Source: Sminthopsis crassicaudata
Lineage: Eukaryota
DNA length: 64,000 bases
Direction of reading: 5' to 3'
Assembly (NCBI RefSeq): GCF_048593235.1
Contig: NC_133618.1
Coordinates: 450,658,947-450,722,946 of the forward strand
In this document: positions 1,611-62,465 of the stretch, piece after piece
Layout of the letters: every line of letters starts with the position of its first letter
How positions within the stretch are numbered: the stretch's first letter is position 1
Notes under the pieces: generated by a model
The model's input: the letters and a program-made list of their open reading frames with translations, nothing else
The model's database searches: none
Told to the model about the DNA's origin: nothing
Position numbers and translations under genes: made by a program

Positions 1611-2818
1611 CCCTTAATATAAGGAAAAGTTTTCTAATACTTGCTTGTCCCAAAATGGAACAGACTGCCCCAGTGTTAGAAGGTTCCCTGGAGTTCTTCA
1701 GTCAAAAGTTGGTTGACCACTTGTCAATGATTTTGCATAGGAGATTCTTATACAGGACTGATTTGCACTAGAGATATCTTACAACTCAAAAAGTCTGTAG
1801 AGTCATTACTTCCAGATTTTTCTAGGTTCTTTCCTTTCCCCAGGTTTATTATCTCATCAGTTTTTCAGAAAACAGCCCCTTAGTTGGAGTAGGGCAAGGA
1901 TTATCAGTCTTCTTGGTAAAGAAAGAAACTGAAGCCCAGAAAACCTAAGGTCACCTAGAGAATTAGTGAAACGACCAGCATTTACATCTCATAACCATTA
2001 AGCTGGTATTACTTTCCACTATACTAAGGTTCAAATCACCAGGGTACTTGGACAAATTTAAGTACTTGCTAAGAGTTAGAATCCTATAGGGCTCTTTAAG
2101 AATAATGCTCCAAGATCATCACTAATCCTATGAACAAAAATTCAATGTCAAAACCATTAAATATTAAAATTTAATATTTAGAGTGTTAAAGATGAAAAAG
2201 CATGAAAATGTAGAACACAAAACAGCAGAGCTGGAAGGGACTTTCCAAAACAGGAGCTTAGAACATAGAACATCAGAATATTGGATATAGAATGTGAGAA
2301 CTCAAAAAGACCATAGAAAATCAAATATAAGTGTTGGAATGGACTCTCAGAAGCTAGAACAAGGAATGGCAGACCTGCGATAAATCTTAGGACTTAGAGG
2401 GGAAGAGCTGAAGAGAGATGATTTAGTCCTGATGTTCTTAACATATTTGTACCACTGACTCACCCCCAAATCTGACAGTCTGGGGAATTCAGTATACCTT
2501 CTTCTCAAAGTAATGGGTTTTCTTTTAATAAGATACATCAGAATGCAAAGAAAATCAATTATCCTGAAATACTGTTATCCAAAAAAAACATTTTTAATCA
2601 GTTCACAGATTCCCTTTATAAAGTCTAATACCCTTGTTTTATAGTTGAAGGGAACAGATCCAATTGAATATGGGAAATGATTTGTCCACTGTCACATAGC
2701 TAGTAAATGGTTGATTCAAAAACTCAGGTTCCTGATGAGATTTTTGCATTGAACTCCATTGCTTTATGATCGCTTCATTCCCCTCCCCCCCAAAAGATCC
2801 CAACTTTCCCATTCATAC

Positions 2819-2872
2819 CTTAATCTGTTCCTTGTAAAAGATGGATCAACAGTGGTTAAGCCTTGGGTCCTC
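2819..2872 (-). other. BPIFB2: Candidate non-coding first exon of BPIFB2
   Basis: A minus-strand donor taag|GTATGA lies at 2819/2818, about 75 nt downstream of a minus-strand TATAAA. The TSS is estimated from TATA spacing only. Confidence 0.45.
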
Positions 2873-2894
2873 CTTCTTTTGGGTCAGGGAATGC

Positions 2895-3000
2895 TTTATA
2901 AACCGCCCAAGAAGGATGAGGGAACAGCACTTTGTGCACAGGGAGGGGCCTATTTACTTTTGATAGACTGTTTTCTCTGCAAATAAAGCTTTTTGCCAAT
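2895..3000 (-). promoter_or_regulatory. Candidate BPIFB2 core promoter with TATA box and forkhead-like motifs
   Basis: Minus-strand TATAAA at 2895-2900. Forkhead-type motifs TATTTAC (2941-2947) and GCAAATA (about 2979-2985), and an NFI-like TTGCCAA near 2994-3000. Confidence 0.45.
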
Positions 3001-3984
3001 TGTATTCATCCCTAACAAAGTGATGGGAATGCCACGTTGCTGGGCATAGCTGCCAAAGGACCCATCAATGGGTTGACATCTTCATCTTTTACCAATGGTA
3101 ACCAGAGGATTCCCAGAAATAGGAGATGCTTCAAAGTCACAATAATCAAGGACAAAGAAAAGGTGGGACAAAAATTGCTAGGAAAGAGGAGGGACTAAAT
3201 CATCCTCATATACAAATCAGAAACTTCTAGAAGCTGGGGTATCAATGAGATAATCTTCATCCCAGGACTGTTGTAAAGAAAGCAATTTGTAATCTTTGAA
3301 GAGGTTAAGCTAGATCTATAATTAATATGAGTTCTCAAGGCTATACAACAGCATTCAGAAAGGCACCATCTACTGAAAGCAAAAATCAAGAATGGTGTAA
3401 TGGAAATCAATTAACAAGCATTTATTAGTACTTATTATATATCAGAAAAAGAGAACTGGATTTTGAGTCAATTCACAATTTTGGCTCTGCTACTAATTAT
3501 TTAGGTGATCTTGGATAAATGACTTCCCTTTCCTAGTCTTCAGCTTTGCTCAGTACAAAAATAGGTAAGTTGGAATAGATTTTTCCCTAAATGCCCATAG
3601 CTTGAAATGCTATGATCCCATGGTCAACATTCAGCAAAACATAAATGGTAGTTTGAGACTAATTTATCTCATCCTAAAAATGGTTCTACAGCAATGGACT
3701 GAGCTGAGTTTCTTTAACCTGAAACTTGATGCCAGGCCTAGGCTGAACCTAATGGTGGTCCAAGATTGAACCCTTCTTTGGACCCCATGCAGAAGTCTAA
3801 CCTCAGCCTTACACTAAGCTCTAACTCTAGCTAATTGGATCTCTTTGGAAGAATTCTCTGGCTACAACTTGCAGAAGATGAATATGTCAATTCTCAATGG
3901 CTGACACATGCACTATAGCTCCTGAAGGGTCCAAAGAAAAGTGGGGTTGGGTAGGTACAAAATATCCCCAACAAAAATTAAATC

Positions 3985-4364
3985 ACTAATGCACTCTTAG
4001 TGAAGTGCTATACTGATTTAACCACTCTGTAGAACAATTTGGAACTATGCCCAAAGGGATACAAAACCATGCATATCCTTTGACCAAACAATATTACTAT
4101 TAGGTCTATATCCCAAAAAGATAGATGAAAAACAAAGGAAAAGAACCTATATATATGAAAATATTTATAGCAGCTATTTTAGTAGCTATTTTATCAAAAA
4201 ATTGGAAATTAATTTGACATCTATTGATTGTAATGGAATACCATTGTGTTTTAAGAAATGATGATCACTGTGCTCTTAGAAAAACCTGGAAAGACTTGCA
4301 TGAACTGATGCAAAGTGAAATGAGTAAGACCAAGACACATTGTATATAGTTATAGCAATAGTAT
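3985..4364 (+). mobile_element. Old L1 fragment (ORF2 end), left flank of the ERV
   Basis: L1 ORF2 C-terminal motifs (ggaactatgcccaaagg, taggtctatatcccaaa, aaaacctggaaagacttgcatgaactgatgcaaagtgaa). Confidence 0.8.
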
Positions 4365-4680
4365 CCTTAGCCAGATGTCTGGTCATTATTCCTATAGCTG
4401 CATTTTCTCCAATAGTTCTTTTGACAGCAGTTTGCAAACGTCCCACAAAAATCTGCAAAAGGTTCATTGGGACCTTGCTCTATTTTAGTGAAAGCCTCTC
4501 CATGATCTTTCTGTCCAGGGAGGACACCCCAAGCTTTTATTGCACCCTTAGCAATTTGCTCATACACTATCATGGGATAATTAATCTGTTCTGAATTCTC
4601 TCCATATTGACCTTCACCATCTAAGTGCTCAAAAGTGAATTTTGTGTTAACTCCTATTTCCAAATTCCATCTGACTTGGC
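4365..4680 (-). mobile_element. gag: Inverted ERV gag capsid fragment
   Basis: The minus strand reads ...FTFEHLDGEGQYGENSEQINYP...AIKAWGVLPG...FTKIEQGPNEPFADF(fs)VGRLQTAVKRTIGENAAIGIMTRHLAK, which includes the retroviral major homology region. Confidence 0.92.
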
Positions 4681-5086
4681 TAAGGAAAATGCCAATGAGA
4701 TTTGCAAAAGAATTATATGGGGATTAGACAAAGATGCTCCTTTAGAGGAGATCATAAGACGCTGTGCTACAGTGGGAACAAATGCTTTTTACACCCGGAC
4801 AATGATGAACGTGGAAAGACAGGGTGCCTCCTGGCAAGGGACTTCTAGACAAACTCAGCGATGTTTTCAATTGGAAAAATTGGACATCTAAGAGCTCAGT
4901 GTAGATATAGAGATAGAGTGAGAAGACAGGGTGAGAGAAGACCTAAAACTTCATGTCCAAAATGTCACAAGGGTCTCCACTGGGCCTCCAAATGTAGATT
5001 GACCCAGGAAAATGAGAGGTGGGGCCCAGCTTCAGCCCCCCAAGTGGGGCATGATGGCAGCCAAGGTTACATCCAGAGAATTTTAA
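4677..5086 (+). pseudogene. gag: ERV gag C-terminal part (CA C-terminal domain plus NC zinc knuckles), frameshifted
   Basis: LAKENANEICKRIIWGLDKDAPLEEIIRRC. The first CCHC knuckle is broken by a 1-nt deletion near 4870. The second knuckle, CPKCHKGLHWASKC, is intact. Confidence 0.9.
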
Positions 5087-5806
5087 GACATGATCAATCA
5101 GCCAAAAGGCAATCAGATGGAAGAAAGGGATTGAAATTAGGAAAAATAGAGTTGTGTGCAGTAGAGACTACTGAGATTCTCCCTGGAGAAGTGAAATCTG
5201 TTCCTTTTGAGCCTATGGATCCTTTGCTTCCAGGCACAGTAGGCTTGACCATTTCACCTTCTGAGAGTGCCTACAAAACAGTGTCCATCCATACACTGAC
5301 GTGGGAAACTGGAGAATGTGTAGCTAATATCCCAGTCACTAACACAGGCAGACAACGTGTGATTTATCAACCAAGAGAAGTAGTAGCATCAGGCTTATTG
5401 TTACGTACCCCTAATAAGCAACCTGGTGATAGTCGCCTAGATTCTAGCTCCAGTGAACAAAATCCAGGAATATATTGGACAGCAGCTGTGACAGCTGACC
5501 GACCTATGCTTACTATTTATATAAATGGAATACCATTTGAAGGATTGGTAGACACGGGTGCAGATTGTACAGTTATTAGAGGTGCCAATTGGCCCAGTCA
5601 CTTGCCAAAGATTAAGGCAGACACCTACATGTTTGGGGTAGGAGGATCAATAGCAGCAGAAGTTAGTGCTAGGCCTTTGAGATGGATATTTGAAGGTGAA
5701 ACAGGAGTTTTTTACTCCTTTTGTGGTTGAAAAAATCCCCATCAATCTGTGGGGAAGAGACATTTTACAGCAGATAGGATTACAAATAAGCACTTCGGCT
5801 TTTTAG
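5000..5806 (+). pseudogene. pro: ERV pro: degenerate dUTPase-like domain plus aspartic protease
   Basis: Protease active site LVDTGAD (DTG at 5551-5559). A +1 frameshift in the T run near 5710 is followed by ...INLWGRDILQQIGLQISTSAF* (TAG 5804-5806). No G-patch is seen. Confidence 0.9.
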
Positions 5807-8199
5807 GTAGGACTGCTGTTGAAGGCCTACCTGCACTTTCACCAGTTCCTATTCAGTGGAAGACTGATTCACCAGTGTGGGTAGAACAGTGGCCCTTAAG
5901 AAGTGATAGAATTCAGGCCTTATTAGACATATTGAACGAACAACTTGACCAAGGACACTTGCGGCTTTCTCTAAATCCTTGGAATTCCCCAGTATTTGTG
6001 GTGAAAAAGAAATTTGGGAAATGGAGGATATTAACTGATCTAAGAAGAGTAAATGAACAGATGGAAACTATGGGAACTCTTCAGCCTGGACTTCCACCTC
6101 CTACTCAGTTGCCAAGAGAATGGCCTCTATGGGTTATAGACATTAAGGATTGTTTCTATTCTATCCCTCTAAATAAGGAGGATATGAAAAGATTTGCTTT
6201 TTCAGTGCCTAGTGTTAATTTGGCTGAGCCTTATAAAAGATATGAATGGACAGTTTTGCCACAGGGAATGAAAAACAGCCCTACTATGTGCCAAATGTAT
6301 GTTGCTGCTGCTCTTGCTCCAATAAGAAAAGCATTTCCAAAAGTAATATTGTTACATTATATGGATGATATTTTGGGATGTGCACCTGAGGAACAAATGT
6401 TAGAAGCATGTCTACAAAAGACCATGGAAACACTAAAGTACTACAAATTGCATATAGCTACAGAAAAAATTCAAAGACATGCTCCTTTTCAATATTTAGG
6501 ATATGAAGTATATCCTAAGACACTCACAGTACAAAAGCTTTCTTTAAGAACAGAGAAGTTGAACACCTTAAATGATTTCCAAAAATTAATAGGAGATATC
6601 CAATGGATGCATCCATTGGTAGGCTTAACTACCAATCAACTGCAACCTCTATATGACATTTTAAGGGGAGACAGTGCTTTAAATTCACCATGCCAGCTTA
6701 CAAAAGAAGCACAAGAGGCTTTGAGAGAAGTTGAACTGGCTTTATCCAATGTGGTTGAAAGAGTCACTCAAAAACTCTTGGAAATATCAGTTTTTGCTAC
6801 AAAAGAGGCACCCACAGCAGTCCTTCATCAAGGACACAGTGTGATTGAGTGGGTGAACCTCCCAGCACAACCAGAACAAAGCCTTACTCCTTACCCAGTG
6901 CTTGTGGCTAGGATTTTATTAAAGGCTATTAAGAGAGTAACACAATTATCTGGAATAAGTCCTGAAAAAATATACACATTCTATACTAACGCACAAATTA
7001 ATGTATGCTGTGAGACCATCCCAGAATGGCAAATTTTATTGGCCACCGCTCCAAATTTTGCACATGGATCTCCATTAAAGATTACCCGGCTACTACATAA
7101 TTGGCGATGGATTTTTGAAGAAAAGGTTTCTAAGGTTCTTCTTAAAGGACCAACAATCTTTACAGATGCCTCCAAAAAAAATATTTGTGCTGTATACTCT
7201 CTGGATTTAACCATAAAGAGAGTAGTCAGGACTCCTTTTCAGTCCACTCAACAGAATGAATTATTTGCTATCATGCTAGCTTTTACTTATTACCCAGAAG
7301 ATGTAAATATAATTACTGATTCAGCCTATTCAGTAGGTGTAGTACAAAGAATTGCCACAACCCGAACAAAATTTGCAGCCTCTAATATTTATCAGCTCTT
7401 TAAGGAACTTCAAGAGCAAGTGAGAAAACATCCAGGCAAGATTTATATCTTGCATGTCCACTCACATAGTGGACTTCCAGGTCCTATTTTTGATGGAAAT
7501 TCAAAGGCAGATAGCCTTCTAACCATGTTAGCCAGTAGTCCTTTATTTCAGGAAGCACAAGAATCTCATTCTAAATATCATCAGGCTGCTAGAGCTTTAC
7601 TTTTACAATTTGGAATCACAAGAGAGGAAGCGAGGAGCATAGTAAAAAGCTGTACAGCTTGTCTTCCTTTCCACGCTCCTACACTCCCTCCAGAGAAGAA
7701 TCCTCGTGGTTTGAGACCCAATGAAATCTGGCAAATGGATATGACCCATTATAAATCTTTTGGTCATCTGTCTTTCATCCACGTGGTAGTAGATACCTTT
7801 TCAGGATTCACTTTTGCAGTGCCAACAGCAAAAGAGACAGCCAGAGTGATCACTAAATTCCTTATCCAAGCATTTGCAATTATGGGTGTGCCACAAGAAA
7901 TAAAAACAGATAATGTACCTGCATATAGTTCTAAACATTTTGCGCACTTCTGTGGGCAGTATAAGATATTACACATTACAGGAATACTTTTTAATCCGCA
8001 AGGTCAGGCAATAGTAGAGAGAAGAAACAGAGACCTTAAGACATTCCTCCAAAAACAAAAGAAAGGGGGAGCCACAGGTAGCCCTAGGGTACTTCTAAAT
8101 TTAGTTCTCTATACCATTAATTTTCTAATTTTTGACAAAGATGCACTGGCTCCAGCAGACAGGTTTTATAACCCACCAGAAGGGCAGTGTCCAGTGTGA
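5800..8199 (+). CDS. pol: ERV pol (RT, RNase H, integrase), uninterrupted ORF, class II betaretrovirus-like
   Basis: RT motifs DIKDCFYSIPL, LPQGMKNSP and YMDD. RNase H motifs TDAS, ELFAI, TDSAY and HVHSH. Integrase HHCC, WQMD, TDN and ERRN. It overlaps pro in the -1 frame at GCTTTTTAG. Confidence 0.95.
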   Translation, partial: FLGRTAVEGLPALSPVPIQWKTDSPVWVEQWPLRSDRIQALLDILNEQLDQGHLRLSLNPWNSPVFVVKKKFGKWRILTDLRRVNEQMETMGTLQPGLPPPTQLPREWPLWVIDIKDCFYSIPLNKEDMKRFAFSVPSVNLAEPYKRYEWTVLPQGMKNSPTMCQMYVAAALAPIRKAFPKVILLHYMDDILGCAPEEQMLEACLQKTMETLKYYKLHIATEKIQRHAPFQYLGYEVYPKTLTVQKLSLRTEKLNTLNDFQKLIGDIQWMHPLVGLTTNQLQPLYDILRGDSALNSPCQLTKEAQEALREVELALSNVVERVTQKLLEISVFATKEAPTAVLHQGHSVIEWVNLPAQPEQSLTPYPVLVARILLKAIKRVTQLSGISPEKIYTFYTNAQINVCCETIPEWQILLATAPNFAHGSPLKITRLLHNWRWIFEEKVSKVLLKGPTIFTDASKKNICAVYSLDLTIKRVVRTPFQSTQQNELFAIMLAFTYYPEDVNIITDSAYSVGVVQRIATTRTKFAASNIYQLFKELQEQVRKHPGKIYILHVHSHSGLPGPIFDGNSKADSLLTMLASSPLFQEAQESHSKYHQAARALLLQFGITREEARSIVKSCTACLPFHAPTLPPEKNPRGLRPNEIWQMDMTHYKSFGHLSFIHVVVDTFSGFTFAVPTAKETARVITKFLIQAFAIMGVPQEIKTDNVPAYSSKHFAHFCGQYKILHITGILFNPQGQAIVERRNRDLKTFLQKQKKGGATGSPRVLLNLVLYTINFLIFDKDALAPADRFYNPPEGQCPV

Positions 8200-8502
8200 G
8201 CAGCTCCACGGTCCTTAGATAATCGCCAGGTGATGTGGAGAGACCCAGAAAGTGGTGAATGGAAGGGACCAGATAGGTTAACTGCCTGGGGGAGAGGGTT
8301 TGCTTGTATTTCTTCAGATGGAGAAGGAATCAGATGGGTGCCAACGAGTCGTATTCGCCTTGTCCATTGGAGAGAGACAGAAAAAGAGAAAGACCTCAAA
8401 ACAAAGGAGAAAATATAAGAAACATCTGACACTGAAAGAGCATGGCTAATAAGAAGACTGTTAAAGAACTTAAAAACCAGCAGGAATCATTGGATTTCCT
8501 AA
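8200..8502 (+). pseudogene. pol: Integrase C-terminal domain and tail, separated from pol by a nonsense codon
   Basis: Continues in the same frame after TGA 8197-8199: VMWRDPESGEWKGPDRLTAWGRGFACIS...WVP. Further in-frame stops at 8416-8418 and 8500-8502. Confidence 0.85.
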
Positions 8503-8700
8503 CACAAGATGAGATTAATGGACAATGGACTTATGGACATTTATAAATTCTCAATTTATGATTATTTGATCATGTTATTTGTTACATACTTCTAGCATGT
8601 ATTATGTTACTACGTTACTATGTTACTATGTGTTTATGTAATGCCTCCCATATTGATGGATTTATGTTTCAAGGTTATGACCACCCTATGTTCTAAATCA

Positions 8701-8716
8701 AAAGAAAGGGGGAGAT
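8701..8716 (+). other. Retroviral polypurine tract
   Basis: aaaagaaagggggaga immediately before the TG of the LTR. Confidence 0.9.
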
Positions 8717-9064
8717 GTTAGGTTCTTACTAAGTGCTAATGAGATAATGAGATATTAGGTTCTAAGTGCTAAGTCGGTACTTGACAATTCTCTAGTTCCA
8801 GCCTTTCCTGGGGAAGAGCTTGCATGCTTAGGAGGAGCAAGTTCATTGGTTGAAGTAATTCTTCCCAGAAGCCCTTGCATTATCCCACGCCCATTCTCTG
8901 GGAGGATAAAGAGGGCAGCTCTGGAGGAAAAAGGGAGTTGTTTCTGGACCAGACTTGAGGCTGCTCTCTACAGGAAGAAGAATCTGTCCAAGAGATTTGA
9001 GTTGACACAGCAGATCTCCTCCCAGAGAGCAATCGGCAGCTTCTGGAGACAACAGCGCATTACA
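8717..9064 (+). mobile_element. ERV 3' LTR, about 348 bp
   Basis: Starts TGTTAGG after the PPT and ends ...GCATTACA, where L1 sequence resumes. It has an internal repeat (taggttc...taagtgctaa, twice) and a TATA-like GATAAA near 8906. Confidence 0.85.
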
Positions 9065-9290
9065 TTGAAACACACTTTTTCTTTACTTTCTTTATTTGGG
9101 ATGTTTTCTTTTACATCATGACTAACACAGAAATGTGTTTTGCACAACTGCACATATACAACCTACATCAAATTGCTTGCCTTCTCAATGAAAGGAGGAA
9201 GGGAGAAAGGAAGGAAAAGAATTTAGAACTCAAAAAAAATTAGTTTAAAATTGTTTTTAATTATCAAAAAATTAAATAGTATGTTTTTAA
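9065..9290 (+). mobile_element. Old L1 3' UTR, right flank of the ERV
   Basis: gtgttttgcacaactgcacatatacaacctacatcaaattgcttgccttctc...gaatttagaactcaaaa followed by an A-rich tail. Confidence 0.75.
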
Positions 9291-9544
9291 AAGAAAAAAT
9301 CCCCACCACTGAAGAGAACTACAGAACTATACAAAATGCAAGTTGAATTGAGATTTAAAGCTTTGAAGTTTTGAAAGCTCTATCTTCCTGTATAAATTTT
9401 TTATTAATTGCTCTGAATCCAACTATCTCTTCCACAGGAAATGTACTTACAAGATGTACCACACACAATTTCTTCCTCCCTAAAATGAAAAGAATGCACT
9501 AAATGGTCACCAAGATCTTTTTCTGCTATTTTTTTTCATTAAAC

Positions 9545-19211: not shown

Positions 19212-19995
19212 AAACCTTGAAGAGACAAATACAAAAAAGTAAAATAACCTCCTCTCGGAAAATTCACATCCTTCCTGAAGCCTTTCTGTAGTACCATAGA
19301 AAACAATATATATTTGATGACTGTTGACTGAGTTTCATATCACACACACAGAGGAAGTGGAAGTTGGGAAGAGTTACACAGCAGCATGATTGGCCAGAAA
19401 GTGAGGTAGAGGCCTGGTTCTGGGTGAGAGTAGGCAAAAACTCAGCTAGCTCCGGGACCCTCTGGGTTTCAGGAGAACAAGGTGGGAGTGATATCAGGAC
19501 TGGAGTTGGTATATAATAATGTTGTAATGGGGGCTTTCTCTACTTCCATTTTCATTGATGAGTGAGTTTGATCCTCTATAGGACTAGACTGATTAGCTCC
19601 CTCAAACCTTGAAGAGACAAATACAAAAAAGTAAAATAACCTCCTCTCGGAAAATTCACATCCTTCCTGAAGCCTTTCTGTAGTACCATAGAAAACAATA
19701 TATATTTGATGACTGTTGACTGAGTTTCATATCACACACACAGAGGAAGTGGAAGTTGGGAAGAGTTACACAGCAGCATGATTGGCCAGAAAGTGAGGTA
19801 GAGGCCTGGTTCTGGGTGAGAGTAGGCAAAAACTCAGCTAGCTCCGGGACCCTCTGGGTTTCAGGAGAACAAGGTGGGAGTGATATCAGGACTGGAGTTG
19901 GTATATAATAATGTTGTAATGGGGGCTTTCTCTACTTCCATTTTCATTGATGAGTGAGTTTGATCCTCTATAGGACTAGACTGATTAGCTCCCTC
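19212..19995 (+). repeat. Perfect 2 x 392 bp tandem duplication
   Basis: 19212-19603 and 19604-19995 look identical by eye (aaaccttgaagagac ... gattagctccctc). Confidence 0.95.
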
Positions 19996-22181: not shown

Positions 22182-24592
22182 CATCTCAACAGATGCAGAA
22201 AAAGCATTTGACAAAATCCAACATCCATTCCTACTAAAAACTCTTGACTATTCCTTAGAATAATCAGGAGTATATATTTACGACCGTCAGTAAGCATAAT
22301 ATGCAATAGAAATAAACTGCAACCTTTCCAAGTAAGATCAGGAGTGAAACAAGGTTGCCCACTATCACCATTACTATTCAATATTGTACTAGAAGCGCTA
22401 GCCTCGGCAATAAGAGCCGAGAAAGAGATTCAAGGAATTAGAGTAGGAAATGAGGAAATCAAACTATCACTTTTTGCAGATGACATGATGGTATACTTAG
22501 AGAACCCCAAAGACTCTGCTAAAAAGCTATTAGAAATAATTCAGAATTTTAGCAAAGTGGCAGGATACAAAATAAATCCACATAAATCCTCAGCATTTTT
22601 ATATATCACCAGCAAAATGCAACAGCAAGAGATACAAAGAGAAATTCCATTCCAAACAAATGTTGAGAGTATAAAATATTTGGGAATCCATCTACCAAAG
22701 AATAGTCAGGAATTATATGAGAAAAATTACAAAACACTTGCCACAAAAATAAAGTCAGATTTAAATAATTGGAAAGACATTCAGTGCTTGTGGATAGGCC
22801 TAGTGAATATAATAAAGATGGCAATACTCCCCAAACTAATCTATTTATTTAGTGCTATACCAATCAGACTCCCAAGAAACTATTTTAATGACCTAGAAAA
22901 AATAACAACAAAATTCATATGGAAGAATAAAAGGTCGAGAATTGCAAGGGAACTAATGAAAAAAACTCAGAGGAAGGTGGTCTAAGTGTACCTGATCTAA
23001 AGCTATATTATATAGCAGCAGTCACCAAAACCATTTGGTATTGGCTAAGAAATAGACAGGTAGATCAGTGGAACAGATTAGATACAAAGAACAAAAAAGG
23101 GTACATCTATAGCAATCTAGTCTTTGACAAACCCAAAGATACCAACATTAGGGATAAAAATTCATTATTTGGAAAAACCTGTTGGGAAAACTGGAAATTA
23201 GTATGGCAGAAATTAGATATGGATCCACACTTAACACCATACACCAAGATAAGATCAAAATGGGTCCATGATTTAGGCATAAAGAATGAGACCATAAATA
23301 GATTAGAGGAACAGAGGATAATCTACCTCTCAGACTTGTGGAGGAGGAAGGAATTTATAACCAGAGGAGAACTAGAGATCATTATTGATCACAAAATAGA
23401 AGATTTTGATTACATCAAATTAAAAAGTTTCTGTACAAACAATACTAATGCAAACAAGATTAGAAGGGAAGTAACAAATTGGGAAAATATTTTTACAGTT
23501 AAAGGTTCTGATAAAGGTCTCATTTCCAAAATATATAGAGAACTGACCCTAATTTATAAGAAATCAAACCATTCTCCAATTGATAAGTGGTCAAAGGATA
23601 TGAACAGACAATTCTCAGATGATGAAATTGAAACTATATCCACTCATATGAAAGAGTGTTCCAAATCACTACTCATCAGAGAAATGCAAATTAAGACAAC
23701 TCTGAGATACCACTACACACCTGTCAGATTGGCTAAGATGACAGGAACAAATAATGATGAATGTTGGAGGGGATGTGGGAAAAGTGGGACACTGATACAT
23801 TGTTGGTGGAGTTGTGAAAGAATCCAGCCATTCTGGAGAGCAATTTGGACCTATGCCCAAAAAGTTATCAAACTGTGCATACCCTTTGATCCAGTATTGC
23901 TGCTATTGGGCTTATATTCCAAAGAAATACTAAAGAGCAGAAAGGGACCTGTATGTGCCAAAATGTTTGTGGCAGCTTTTTTTGTAGTGGCTGGAAATGG
24001 AAGATGAATGGATGTCCATCAATTGGAGAATGGTTGGGTAAATTATGGTATATGAAGGCTATGGAATATTATTGCTCTGTAAGAAATGACCAGCAGGAGG
24101 AATACAGAGAGGCCTGGAGAGACTTACATCAACTGATGCTGAGTGAAATGAATAGAACCAGAAGATCGCTGTACACTTCAGTGCTGTATGAAGATGTATT
24201 CTGATGGAAGTGGATATCTTCAACATAAAGAAGATCCAACTCACTTCCAGTTGATCAATGATGGACAGAAATAACTACACCCAGAGAAGGAACACTGGGA
24301 AGTGAATGTAAATTGTTAGCACTACTGTCTATCTACCCAGGTTACTTATACCTTCGGAATCCAATACTTAATGTGCAACAAGAAAATGGTATTTACACAC
24401 ATATATTGTATCCAGGTTATATTGTAACACATGTAAAATGTATGGGATTGCCTGTCATCGGGGGGAGGGAGTGGAGGGAGGAGGGGGATAATTTGGAAAA
24501 ATGAATACAAGGGATAATATTTTTTAAATTACTCATGCATATATACTGTGGGAAAAAAATTCTAAATAAATAAATAAAATTTAAAAAAAAAT
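22182..24592 (+). mobile_element. Younger 5'-truncated L1, about 2.4 kb (RT C-terminal half, C-terminal domain, 3' UTR, A-rich tail) with TSD
   Basis: ORF pieces KQGCPLSPLLFNIVLE...LSLFADDMMVY and HCWW. A 16-bp TSD agaatgactg(g/t)atcag lies at 22166-22181 and 24593-24608. Several stops and frameshifts. Confidence 0.95.
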
Positions 24593-61869: not shown

Positions 61870-62465
61870 TTTATAGTGACAAGGAACTGGAAGTTGAGTG
61901 GATGCCCATCAGTTAAGGAATGCCTGAATGTATCTATGGTATATGAATGTAATAGAATATTATTGTTCTATAAAAAATGAAATCAAAAAAGCCTGGAAAG
62001 ACTTACATGAACTGATGCTAAGCAAAGTGAACAGAACCAAAAGAACATTGTACACCACAAGTTTATGTGATGATCATTTCTGATGGACTTGGCTCTTCAA
62101 CAATGAGGTGATTCAAGGTGATTTCAATAGACTTGTAATGGAAAGAATCATGAGCATCCAGAGAGAGAACTATGGAGACTGAATGTGGATCAAGGCAAAG
62201 TATTTTCACAAATTTTTGGTGGTAATGGTGTATTGTTTTCTATTGTGTTTTTTTTCCCTTTTGATCTGATTTTTCTTGCACAGCAGGGTAAATATTGAAA
62301 TACGTTTTGAAGAAGTGCACATGTTTAATCTATAGTGGATTGCTTGCTGTCTAGGGAAGGGAGAGGGAAGGGAGAAAAATTTGGAACATAAGGTTTTGTA
62401 AAAGCAAAGTTTGAAAAAATCTGCATATAGTTGAAAAAATAAAAAGCTATTATCAAAAAGCAAAT
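61870..62465 (+). mobile_element. L1 3' fragment
   Basis: ggaactggaagttgagtggatgcccatc...gcctggaaagacttacatgaactgatgct...A-rich tail. Confidence 0.85.

What the first reader, a model, noticed from the sequence alone, without database searches (positions are those of the whole stretch)
4350..4700. 5'-truncated ERV with an inverted gag segment in twin-priming-like geometry
Seen in sequence: about 315 bp of capsid gag lies on the minus strand and ends ...RHLAK (catctggctaagga) at the outer left junction, 4364/4365. The plus-strand provirus resumes at LAKENANE (tggctaaggaaaatgcc, about 4677), so about 10 bp at the breakpoint is present in both pieces. The 5' LTR, PBS and 5' gag are missing. The flanking L1 pieces are collinear but lack about 120-130 bp, judged against the L1 copy at about 62060-62190. 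Established: this geometry is the hallmark of L1 twin priming and is unusual for integrase-made proviruses. However, the 3' end is a full TG...CA LTR with no poly(A). Inference, two models: (a) an inversion-deletion by microhomology-mediated repair during or after integration; (b) L1-mediated retrotransposition of a read-through ERV RNA that carried the downstream L1 tail. For (b), a possible 8-bp TSD aatagtat occurs at 4357-4364 and 9275-9282, but it may be chance in AT-rich DNA.
Basis: partly seen in the sequence, partly recalled or inferred. Interest (0 to 1): 0.7.

Follow-up and report, generated by a model that had tools for sequence, protein, structure and literature searches.

The report
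One-ended provirus with flipped gag
A broken retrovirus copy in a marsupial genome has about 315 bases of its own capsid gene flipped at its cut-off front end, likely because the viral DNA folded back on itself and only one end was inserted properly; this is a known kind of insertion accident, and the proposed LINE-1 origin is not supported.

Summary
The geometry is real. Gag 4364-4679 is inverted, the forward provirus resumes at 4677, 6-10 nt are duplicated, and microhomology is 3 nt (inner) and 1 nt (outer). The inner junction is unique in the genome. A contig from a second sample bridges the outer junction.

L1 retrotransposition (model b) fails. There is no donor and no poly(A). Both flanks belong to one old L1 with its own 13/15 TSD, missing about 119 bp. 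The 8-bp 'TSD' is L1 sequence.

The family is an env-less class II ERV with 6-bp TSDs and many aberrant copies. Eight of 109 are inverted yet TSD-bounded. Eleven of 39 lost one end. Five of 7 measurable end-lost copies lost almost no host DNA.

Best reading (0.58): fold-back of viral DNA, integrase joining of the U5 end only, host repair on the left, as in HIV/ASLV aberrant integration. Post-integration deletion-inversion remains open (0.30). The scan earlier noted a different mirror-image ERV in this genome (e1-9002883). Side finding: three copies carry a whole tRNA-Lys primer at one inversion site.

The parts
3959..3973 (+). Left copy of the host L1's degenerate target-site duplication
   Evidence: 13/15 match to 9294-9308. 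30 of 62081 window 15-mers match that region as well. L1 relatives start aligning at 3974.
3974..4364 (+). Old 5'-truncated L1, left part
   Evidence: 70-83% to other genomic copies; collinear with the right part
4364..4679 (-). Inverted capsid-gag segment
   Evidence: 95-96% to 19 normally oriented relatives; Gag_p24; outer junction bridged in run X2
4364..4373 (-). Inverted copy of the duplicated 10-mer; 4364 is shared with the L1 (1-nt microhomology)
   Evidence: sequence
4677..4686 (+). Forward copy of the 10-mer; 4677-4679 is the 3-nt inner microhomology
   Evidence: junction 22-mer found once in the genome, plus one chance 1-mismatch hit in non-ERV DNA
4677..8715 (+). Forward provirus: 3' gag, pro, pol (RT, integrase), about 300 nt in place of env, polypurine tract at 8700-8715; reading frames broken
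   Evidence: ORFs; Pfam Gag_p24_C, zf-CCHC_5, RVP, RVT_1, Integrase_Zn, rve, IN_DBD_C
8716..9064 (+). Complete 3' LTR, TG...CA, no poly(A) after it
   Evidence: LTR matches end at 9064
9065..9293 (+). Old L1, right part (3' tail); about 119 bp of L1 are missing between 4364 and 9065
9294..9308 (+). Right copy of the host L1's degenerate target-site duplication

Best explanation
This is a defective class II endogenous retrovirus with a normal right end, an inverted 315-bp gag piece at its truncated left end and about 119 bp of host L1 missing, likely made by a one-ended insertion of viral DNA that had folded back on itself. Inferred steps: (1) The minus-strand DNA ended in capsid gag. Its 3' end paired over 3 nt (4677-4679) with the same strand about 305 nt further 3' in the genome and was extended, giving a hairpin-capped DNA with one good U5 end. 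(2) Integrase joined that U5 end at 9064/9065. (3) The hairpin was opened 6-10 nt into the stem and filled in, which flips the loop and duplicates those bases. (4) Host end-joining attached this end to the L1 over 1 nt of homology, losing the 6-bp TSD and about 119 bp. The junctions and the losses are shown; the order and timing are inferred.
For: One fold-back accounts for four features together: adjacency of the flipped piece, 3-nt microhomology, 6-10 nt overlap, and one intact att end. Microhomology of 3 nt or more occurs in 1193 of 20000 random inverted joins. A 6-bp inverted repeat joins the two ends of the loop, as in 188-301 of 5000 random pieces; each is weak. The family does invert DNA before insertion. 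L091 and L115 have U5 ends on both sides with 6/6 TSDs and arms 99.3% and 98.4% alike. L138 has a 6/6 TSD and a whole tRNA-Lys at its inversion junction. The family inserts truncated DNA: host loss was measurable in 7 of 27 end-lost copies and lay within about 20 bp of zero in 5, despite 0.5-4.7 kb of virus missing. Two end-lost copies are very young (L135 0.0% and L153 0.36% from the nearest copy). L153 has the window's layout without the inversion: U5 end kept, about 275 bp of host L1 lost. Precedent: in HIV/ASLV one-ended integration the bad end is often truncated, can be joined to viral DNA in either orientation, and flanking host DNA can be deleted (PMC5041404 sections 10 and 12).
Against: The same fold-back and opening can happen at a chromosomal break after a normal insertion, so the geometry does not date it. 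The window lost 119 bp of host, unlike the 5 near-zero cases. It is old enough for later damage (2.4-3.5% from the nearest copies). In PMC5041404 host duplication is the commonest outcome, yet 0 of 27 end-lost copies here show a flank duplication of 25 nt or more. None of the 109 long loci or the 19 short ones repeats this exact geometry. End loss is symmetric (6 keep U5 only, 5 keep U3 only, of 39), so there is no bias towards minus-strand fold-back. The global fold of the loop is unremarkable (z -0.47) and does not pair its two ends. End-lost and TSD-bounded copies do not differ in nearest-copy distance (p 0.27-0.47), so age does not discriminate.
Confidence: 0.58

Rival explanations
1. A normal two-LTR provirus inserted at 9064/9065. 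A later break, repaired by fold-back or template switching, removed about 119 bp of L1 and about 1.55 kb of virus and flipped 315 bp.
For: Same junction chemistry. Fold-back inversions with one end captured by end-joining form at chromosomal breaks in yeast (PMC11724301, abstract only; most there are 5-34 bp). The copy is 2.4-3.5% diverged. L088 lost about 2.5 kb of host.
Against: The host breakpoint lies only about 119 bp from the insertion site while about 1.55 kb of virus is lost; a rough power-law estimate (my assumption, not a call) puts this at 4-7%. Five of 7 measurable end-lost relatives have near-zero host loss.
Confidence: 0.3
2. The element inserted as a head-to-head U5-U5 palindrome like L091 and L115, with 4.4-kb arms and a 305-nt spacer, and later lost its left arm down to a 6-10 nt stub together with 119 bp of host.
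For: Such dimers exist in the family (2 of 109). Long palindromes are unstable (general knowledge).
Against: It needs a deletion that stops within 10 nt of the arm's inner edge. Palindromes usually resolve by central deletion (recalled).
Confidence: 0.07
3. L1 copied a read-through ERV RNA that carried the L1 tail, with twin priming.
For: The overlap size fits twin priming (PMC12016303). Young L1 copies exist in this genome (99% alike between loci). No AATAAA or ATTAAA lies in this LTR.
Against: No donor. The host L1 has its own TSD around both flanks. The 8-mer is L1 sequence and common. No remainder of a target L1 follows 9283. 0 of 109 family copies end in an A-rich tail. End loss is not 3'-anchored.
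Confidence: 0.02
4. Assembly error.
For: The family has thousands of copies (2532-3567 candidates). The inner junction was not seen in contigs.
Against: The outer junction is bridged in run X2. The two pieces abut within 10 nt in gag coordinates. The inner junction is unique.
Confidence: 0.02

Closest known systems
Aberrant one-ended integrations of HIV-1 and ASLV (PMC5041404; background, sections 10 and 12 and passages read)
   Same: One normal integrase junction; a truncated other end joined to further viral DNA in either orientation; short homology at the junction; host deletion.
   Different: Those were induced by drugs or mutations in culture, with 0 of 99 and 0 of 85 aberrant in wild-type controls, and host duplication was commonest. 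This is a germline copy and its timing is inferred.
L1 twin-priming 5' inversions (PMC12016303, passages and section 8; Ostertag and Kazazian 2001 seen only in its reference list)
   Same: Inverted 5' piece whose outer end abuts the start of the forward piece, with a short overlap.
   Different: No poly(A), no TSD, ends in U5 CA, a 119-bp host loss, no donor.
HTLV-1 proviruses that lost the 5' LTR before integration (PMC6950816, one passage)
   Same: 3' LTR kept, 5' LTR missing. Relatives such as L110, L116, L159 and L182 look like this class.
   Different: Those keep the 6-bp repeat at an internal viral sequence; the window keeps none and has an inversion.
MEBrv 3, env-less betaretrovirus-like ERV of Dasyuridae (PMC11334065; passages and section 7; supplement listed but not opened)
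   Same: Class II, gag-pro-pol without env, very high copy number, members with identical LTRs.
   Different: The natural two-LTR copy used here as ruler is 6.3 kb with LTRs of 349-440 nt, against about 7.3 kb and 469 nt. No sequence comparison was made. The passages searched showed 0 occurrences of 'inversion' or 'target site'.
L1-processed ERV pseudogenes such as HERV-W (recalled; the listing gave no dedicated paper)
   Same: 5'-truncated ERV sequence lacking the 5' LTR.
   Different: They end at R with poly(A) and a long TSD; this ends at U5.

Membership tests
L1 twin-priming insertion | Inverted 5' piece abutting the forward piece, with a small overlap or gap | tested here: met
   6-10 nt overlap
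L1 twin-priming insertion | 3' poly(A) tail | tested here: not met
   The LTR's CA is followed by L1 sequence; 0 of 109 relatives have an A-rich tail
L1 twin-priming insertion | TSD around the insert | tested here: not met
   The 8-mer is L1 sequence and common; the only larger repeat bounds the whole host L1
L1 twin-priming insertion | Donor locus for the transduced 3' flank | tested here: not met
   Next best match 70-85% among the 40 best of 1560 candidates; none among the 40 best of 2778
One-ended (aberrant) retroviral integration | One precise integrase-type end | tested here: met
   LTR ends at CA 9064, like the TSD-bounded copies
One-ended (aberrant) retroviral integration | Other end truncated or rearranged, normal TSD absent, host altered | tested here: met
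One-ended (aberrant) retroviral integration | Rearrangement formed at insertion, with no intact provirus ever at the site | tested here: inconclusive
   Orthologous flanks of organisms B and C were laid, but what follows 4364 was not shown; support is from the family only
Class II (betaretrovirus-like) ERV | RT closest to class II enzymes | tested here: met
   Best PDB match 7sr6_A E 2.8e-78 against 8e-43 for the next; that 7sr6 is HERV-K RT is recalled, the call names it only 'Polymerase'
Class II (betaretrovirus-like) ERV | 6-bp TSD and tRNA-Lys primer in family members | tested here: met
   TSD; tRNA-Lys CTT
MEBrv 3 | gag-pro-pol, no env, high copy number | tested here: met
MEBrv 3 | RT sequence clusters with the published MEBrv 3 representatives | not tested
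   Representative sequences were not obtained

The most novel reading that the evidence does not exclude
This locus is one fossil of an error-prone germline retroelement. The family routinely inserts folded-back, head-to-head and single-ended DNAs (11 of 39 copies end-lost; 8 of 109 inverted yet TSD-bounded; 3 of 109 with the whole tRNA primer copied at one pol site). It would be a natural, genome-wide counterpart of drug-induced aberrant HIV integration and a source of host deletions and palindromes in dasyurids.
Probability: 0.35. Interest if true: 0.55.

Novelty: new member of a known kind. Interest (0 to 1): 0.3.

Why it matters
The locus alone is a dead, singly rearranged provirus with no sign of function. 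Its lesson is that twin-priming-like geometry does not prove L1 involvement: a fold-back gives the same picture. The family matters more. If its many one-ended and inverted copies formed at insertion, thousands of dated natural examples exist of a process studied mainly with inhibitors and mutants, and the share of end-lost ERVs that are born broken becomes countable.

Tried and rejected
Simple inversion between existing inverted repeats: rejected, because relatives lack the 10-mer upstream of the segment.

Inversion inherited from a subfamily: the junction occurs once; L077 is a chance hit in non-ERV DNA.

Autointegration or a nested insertion at the 6-nt duplicated core: no LTR end lies at either junction.

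Origin of the flipped piece from a second RNA: identities of the flipped and adjacent pieces across 92 copies are uncorrelated (Spearman 0.15, p 0.17), but the sample was chosen by those probes, so this is uninformative.

Automatic end classification was noisy (4 and 7 end-lost in the RT set, 29 of 109 unresolved). The counts used are hand-curated. L124 and L144 were dropped because the provirus resumes after a nested insertion.

L097 looked like a second example, but its inverted piece is a 67% older ERV 3.9 kb away.

The hits of the 5' gag probe were not fetched.

Orthologous empty site: not visible; lack of cover there proves nothing.

Paper searches: (aberrant integration + provirus + inversion + microhomology + deletion) found 0 papers with all terms. 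One search listed nothing evidently on head-to-head ERV insertions (listing only). Searches found no earlier scan note on this locus or wording.

Full report
Observation. Window 4364-4679 is capsid gag on the minus strand (Gag_p24 E 1.2e-7), and the plus-strand provirus starts at 4677. In 19 of 19 closest relatives (95-96%) the two pieces are neighbours in one normally oriented gag. The donor 10-mer at the boundary is present in both pieces (4364-4373 and 4677-4686). Relatives do not carry it at the other end of the segment, so bases were duplicated: 10 at most, and 6 if the 3-nt inner microhomology (4677-4679) and the 1 nt shared with the L1 (4364) are set aside. The inner junction 22-mer occurs once in the 3.24-Gb genome; a second hit with one mismatch is non-ERV DNA. 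A 113-nt contig of run X2 bridges the outer junction with one difference, and X2 differs from the window at 3330 where X1 does not, so it is likely a second individual. The inner and right junctions were not seen in contigs.

The element. Downstream lie 3' gag, pro, RT and integrase, about 300 nt where env would be, a polypurine tract and a full LTR at 8716-9064. The RT is far closer to PDB 7sr6 (E 2.8e-78) than to lentiviral RTs (the identity of 7sr6 as HERV-K RT is recalled). The family has thousands of copies, 6-bp TSDs and a tRNA-Lys primer. It resembles MEBrv 3 of PMC11334065 (passages and section 7 read; the supplement was listed but not opened and may bear on membership). About 1.55 kb of the 5' end is missing, measured on a natural two-LTR copy.

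The host site. Both flanks are one old L1. It starts at 3974, is collinear across the provirus, and lacks a median 119 bp (17 usable of 33 relatives). It is bounded by a 13/15 repeat at 3959-3973 and 9294-9308; 30 of 62081 control 15-mers match that region as well. No second copy of the right flank exists among the best candidates (70-85%). No LTR joined to this flank was found elsewhere, and no remainder of a target L1 follows 9283. None of 109 family copies ends in an A-rich tail. L1-mediated copying is therefore not supported, although the overlap fits twin priming (median 12 bp, PMC12016303 section 8) and young L1s exist in the genome.

The family. I fetched 109 relatives as 9.9-kb loci: all 39 non-self hits of an integrase probe, 37 new of 39 for an RT probe, and 33 new of 39 for a protease probe. 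They were mapped on natural copies. These are the best matches to the window, not a random sample.

Inversions in the family. Nineteen of 109 contain an inverted family segment, some being nested neighbours. Eight are bounded by a 6/6 TSD: L083, L091, L115, L116, L138 and L164, L152 and L159. L091 and L115 have U5 ends on both sides, with arms 99.3% and 98.4% alike; a later simple inversion cannot make that. L118, L138 and L146 carry a whole tRNA-Lys copy between the same pol position and an inverted 5' end (ARAGORN calls two of the three). So this family does invert DNA during reverse transcription.

End loss in the family. With the central RT probe, 11 of 39 copies lack one end: 6 keep U5 only and 5 keep U3 only. 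These counts are hand-curated, and two nested-insertion cases were dropped. Host loss could be measured in 7 of 27 end-lost copies: about -6, -5, -1, +4, +6, 279 and 2515 bp (two rest on one proxy each, and L163's boundary is uncertain by about 20 nt). Two end-lost copies are 0.0% and 0.36% from their nearest relative.

Against a simple story. None of 27 shows a host duplication. None of 109 repeats the window's exact geometry. Nearest-copy distance does not separate end-lost from TSD-bounded copies.

Mechanism. Read on the top strand the locus is: minus-sense gag running 5'-wards, then plus-sense from the point where that run began, through to U5. That is the strand a fold-back produces. A minus-strand end pairs over 3 nt with itself and is extended, and opening the hairpin 6-10 nt into the stem flips the loop and duplicates those bases (inference). 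Local support is weak: 1193 of 20000 random joins have 3 nt or more, the 6-bp inverted repeat between the loop ends is matched by 4-6% of controls, and the global fold is unremarkable. With only one att end, integrase would join U5 and host repair the rest. That is the pattern described for HIV and ASLV, where the bad end is truncated, joined to viral DNA in either orientation, and host DNA is deleted or duplicated (PMC5041404). The same fold-back could have happened at a chromosomal break later (PMC11724301, abstract). I put insertion-time origin at 0.58, later deletion-inversion at 0.30, loss of one arm of a head-to-head dimer at 0.07, and L1 copying and misassembly at 0.02 each.

Novelty. 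The locus is a new member of a known kind, a defective provirus with one aberrant end, and has no sign of function. My searches (listings, with seven papers opened in part) showed no description of such classes in dasyurid ERVs, but the library lacks most subscription papers. An earlier unchecked scan note (e1-9002883) reports a mirror-image element made of two LTRs in this genome. It agrees with the family picture and was not tested here. Interest is 0.3 for the finding; the family-wide census and the tRNA read-through copies deserve the follow-up.

Noticed in passing
L118:3446-3521 (-), L138:6385-6460 (+), and L146 (about 6385-6460 when turned to ERV sense): A whole tRNA-Lys(CTT) with CCA sits between one pol position and an inverted 5' LTR or leader in 3 of 109 copies, joined by about 8 nt shared between pol and the tRNA 5' end. 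The three differ in tRNA variant or in priming site, so the events are likely independent. HIV proviruses with tRNA inserts of 7-54 nt are known (PMC12657518, passages); here the whole primer was copied and the jump made an inversion.
   Followed up: partly
L091 (G000:C1:270401319-270411219), L115 (G000:C1:72478997-72488897): Head-to-head proviruses with U5 ends on both sides and perfect 6-bp TSDs; L091 has a 48-nt non-viral filler between the arms.
   Followed up: partly
L083, L092, L129, L160, L171, L179: The 3' LTR runs on into PBS and leader and ends at an internal CA with a 6-bp TSD, several at the same leader position.
   Followed up: partly
L094, L107, L110, L126, L156, L182: Only 3 to about 47 nt of the 5' LTR remain before an internal deletion, with 6/6 TSD: likely deleted before integration.
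   Followed up: partly
L148, L151, L170, L174, L179, L180, L186: LTR pairs 99.4-100% identical: a very recent branch of the family.
   Followed up: no
window 19212-19511 and 19604-19903: Exact 300-nt direct repeat at 392-nt spacing: a recent tandem duplication or an assembly artefact.
   Followed up: no
window 22910-24573; L097, L122, L162: L1 3' region 92% alike to a copy in L097, which is 99.1-99.5% alike to copies in L122 and L162: recent L1 activity in this genome.
   Followed up: no
L002, L003, L005-L007, L010-L012, L014, L016, L017, L020: Short members that diverge from the window after gag and have LTR matches within about 3 kb on both sides: likely a non-autonomous gag-only form.
   Followed up: no
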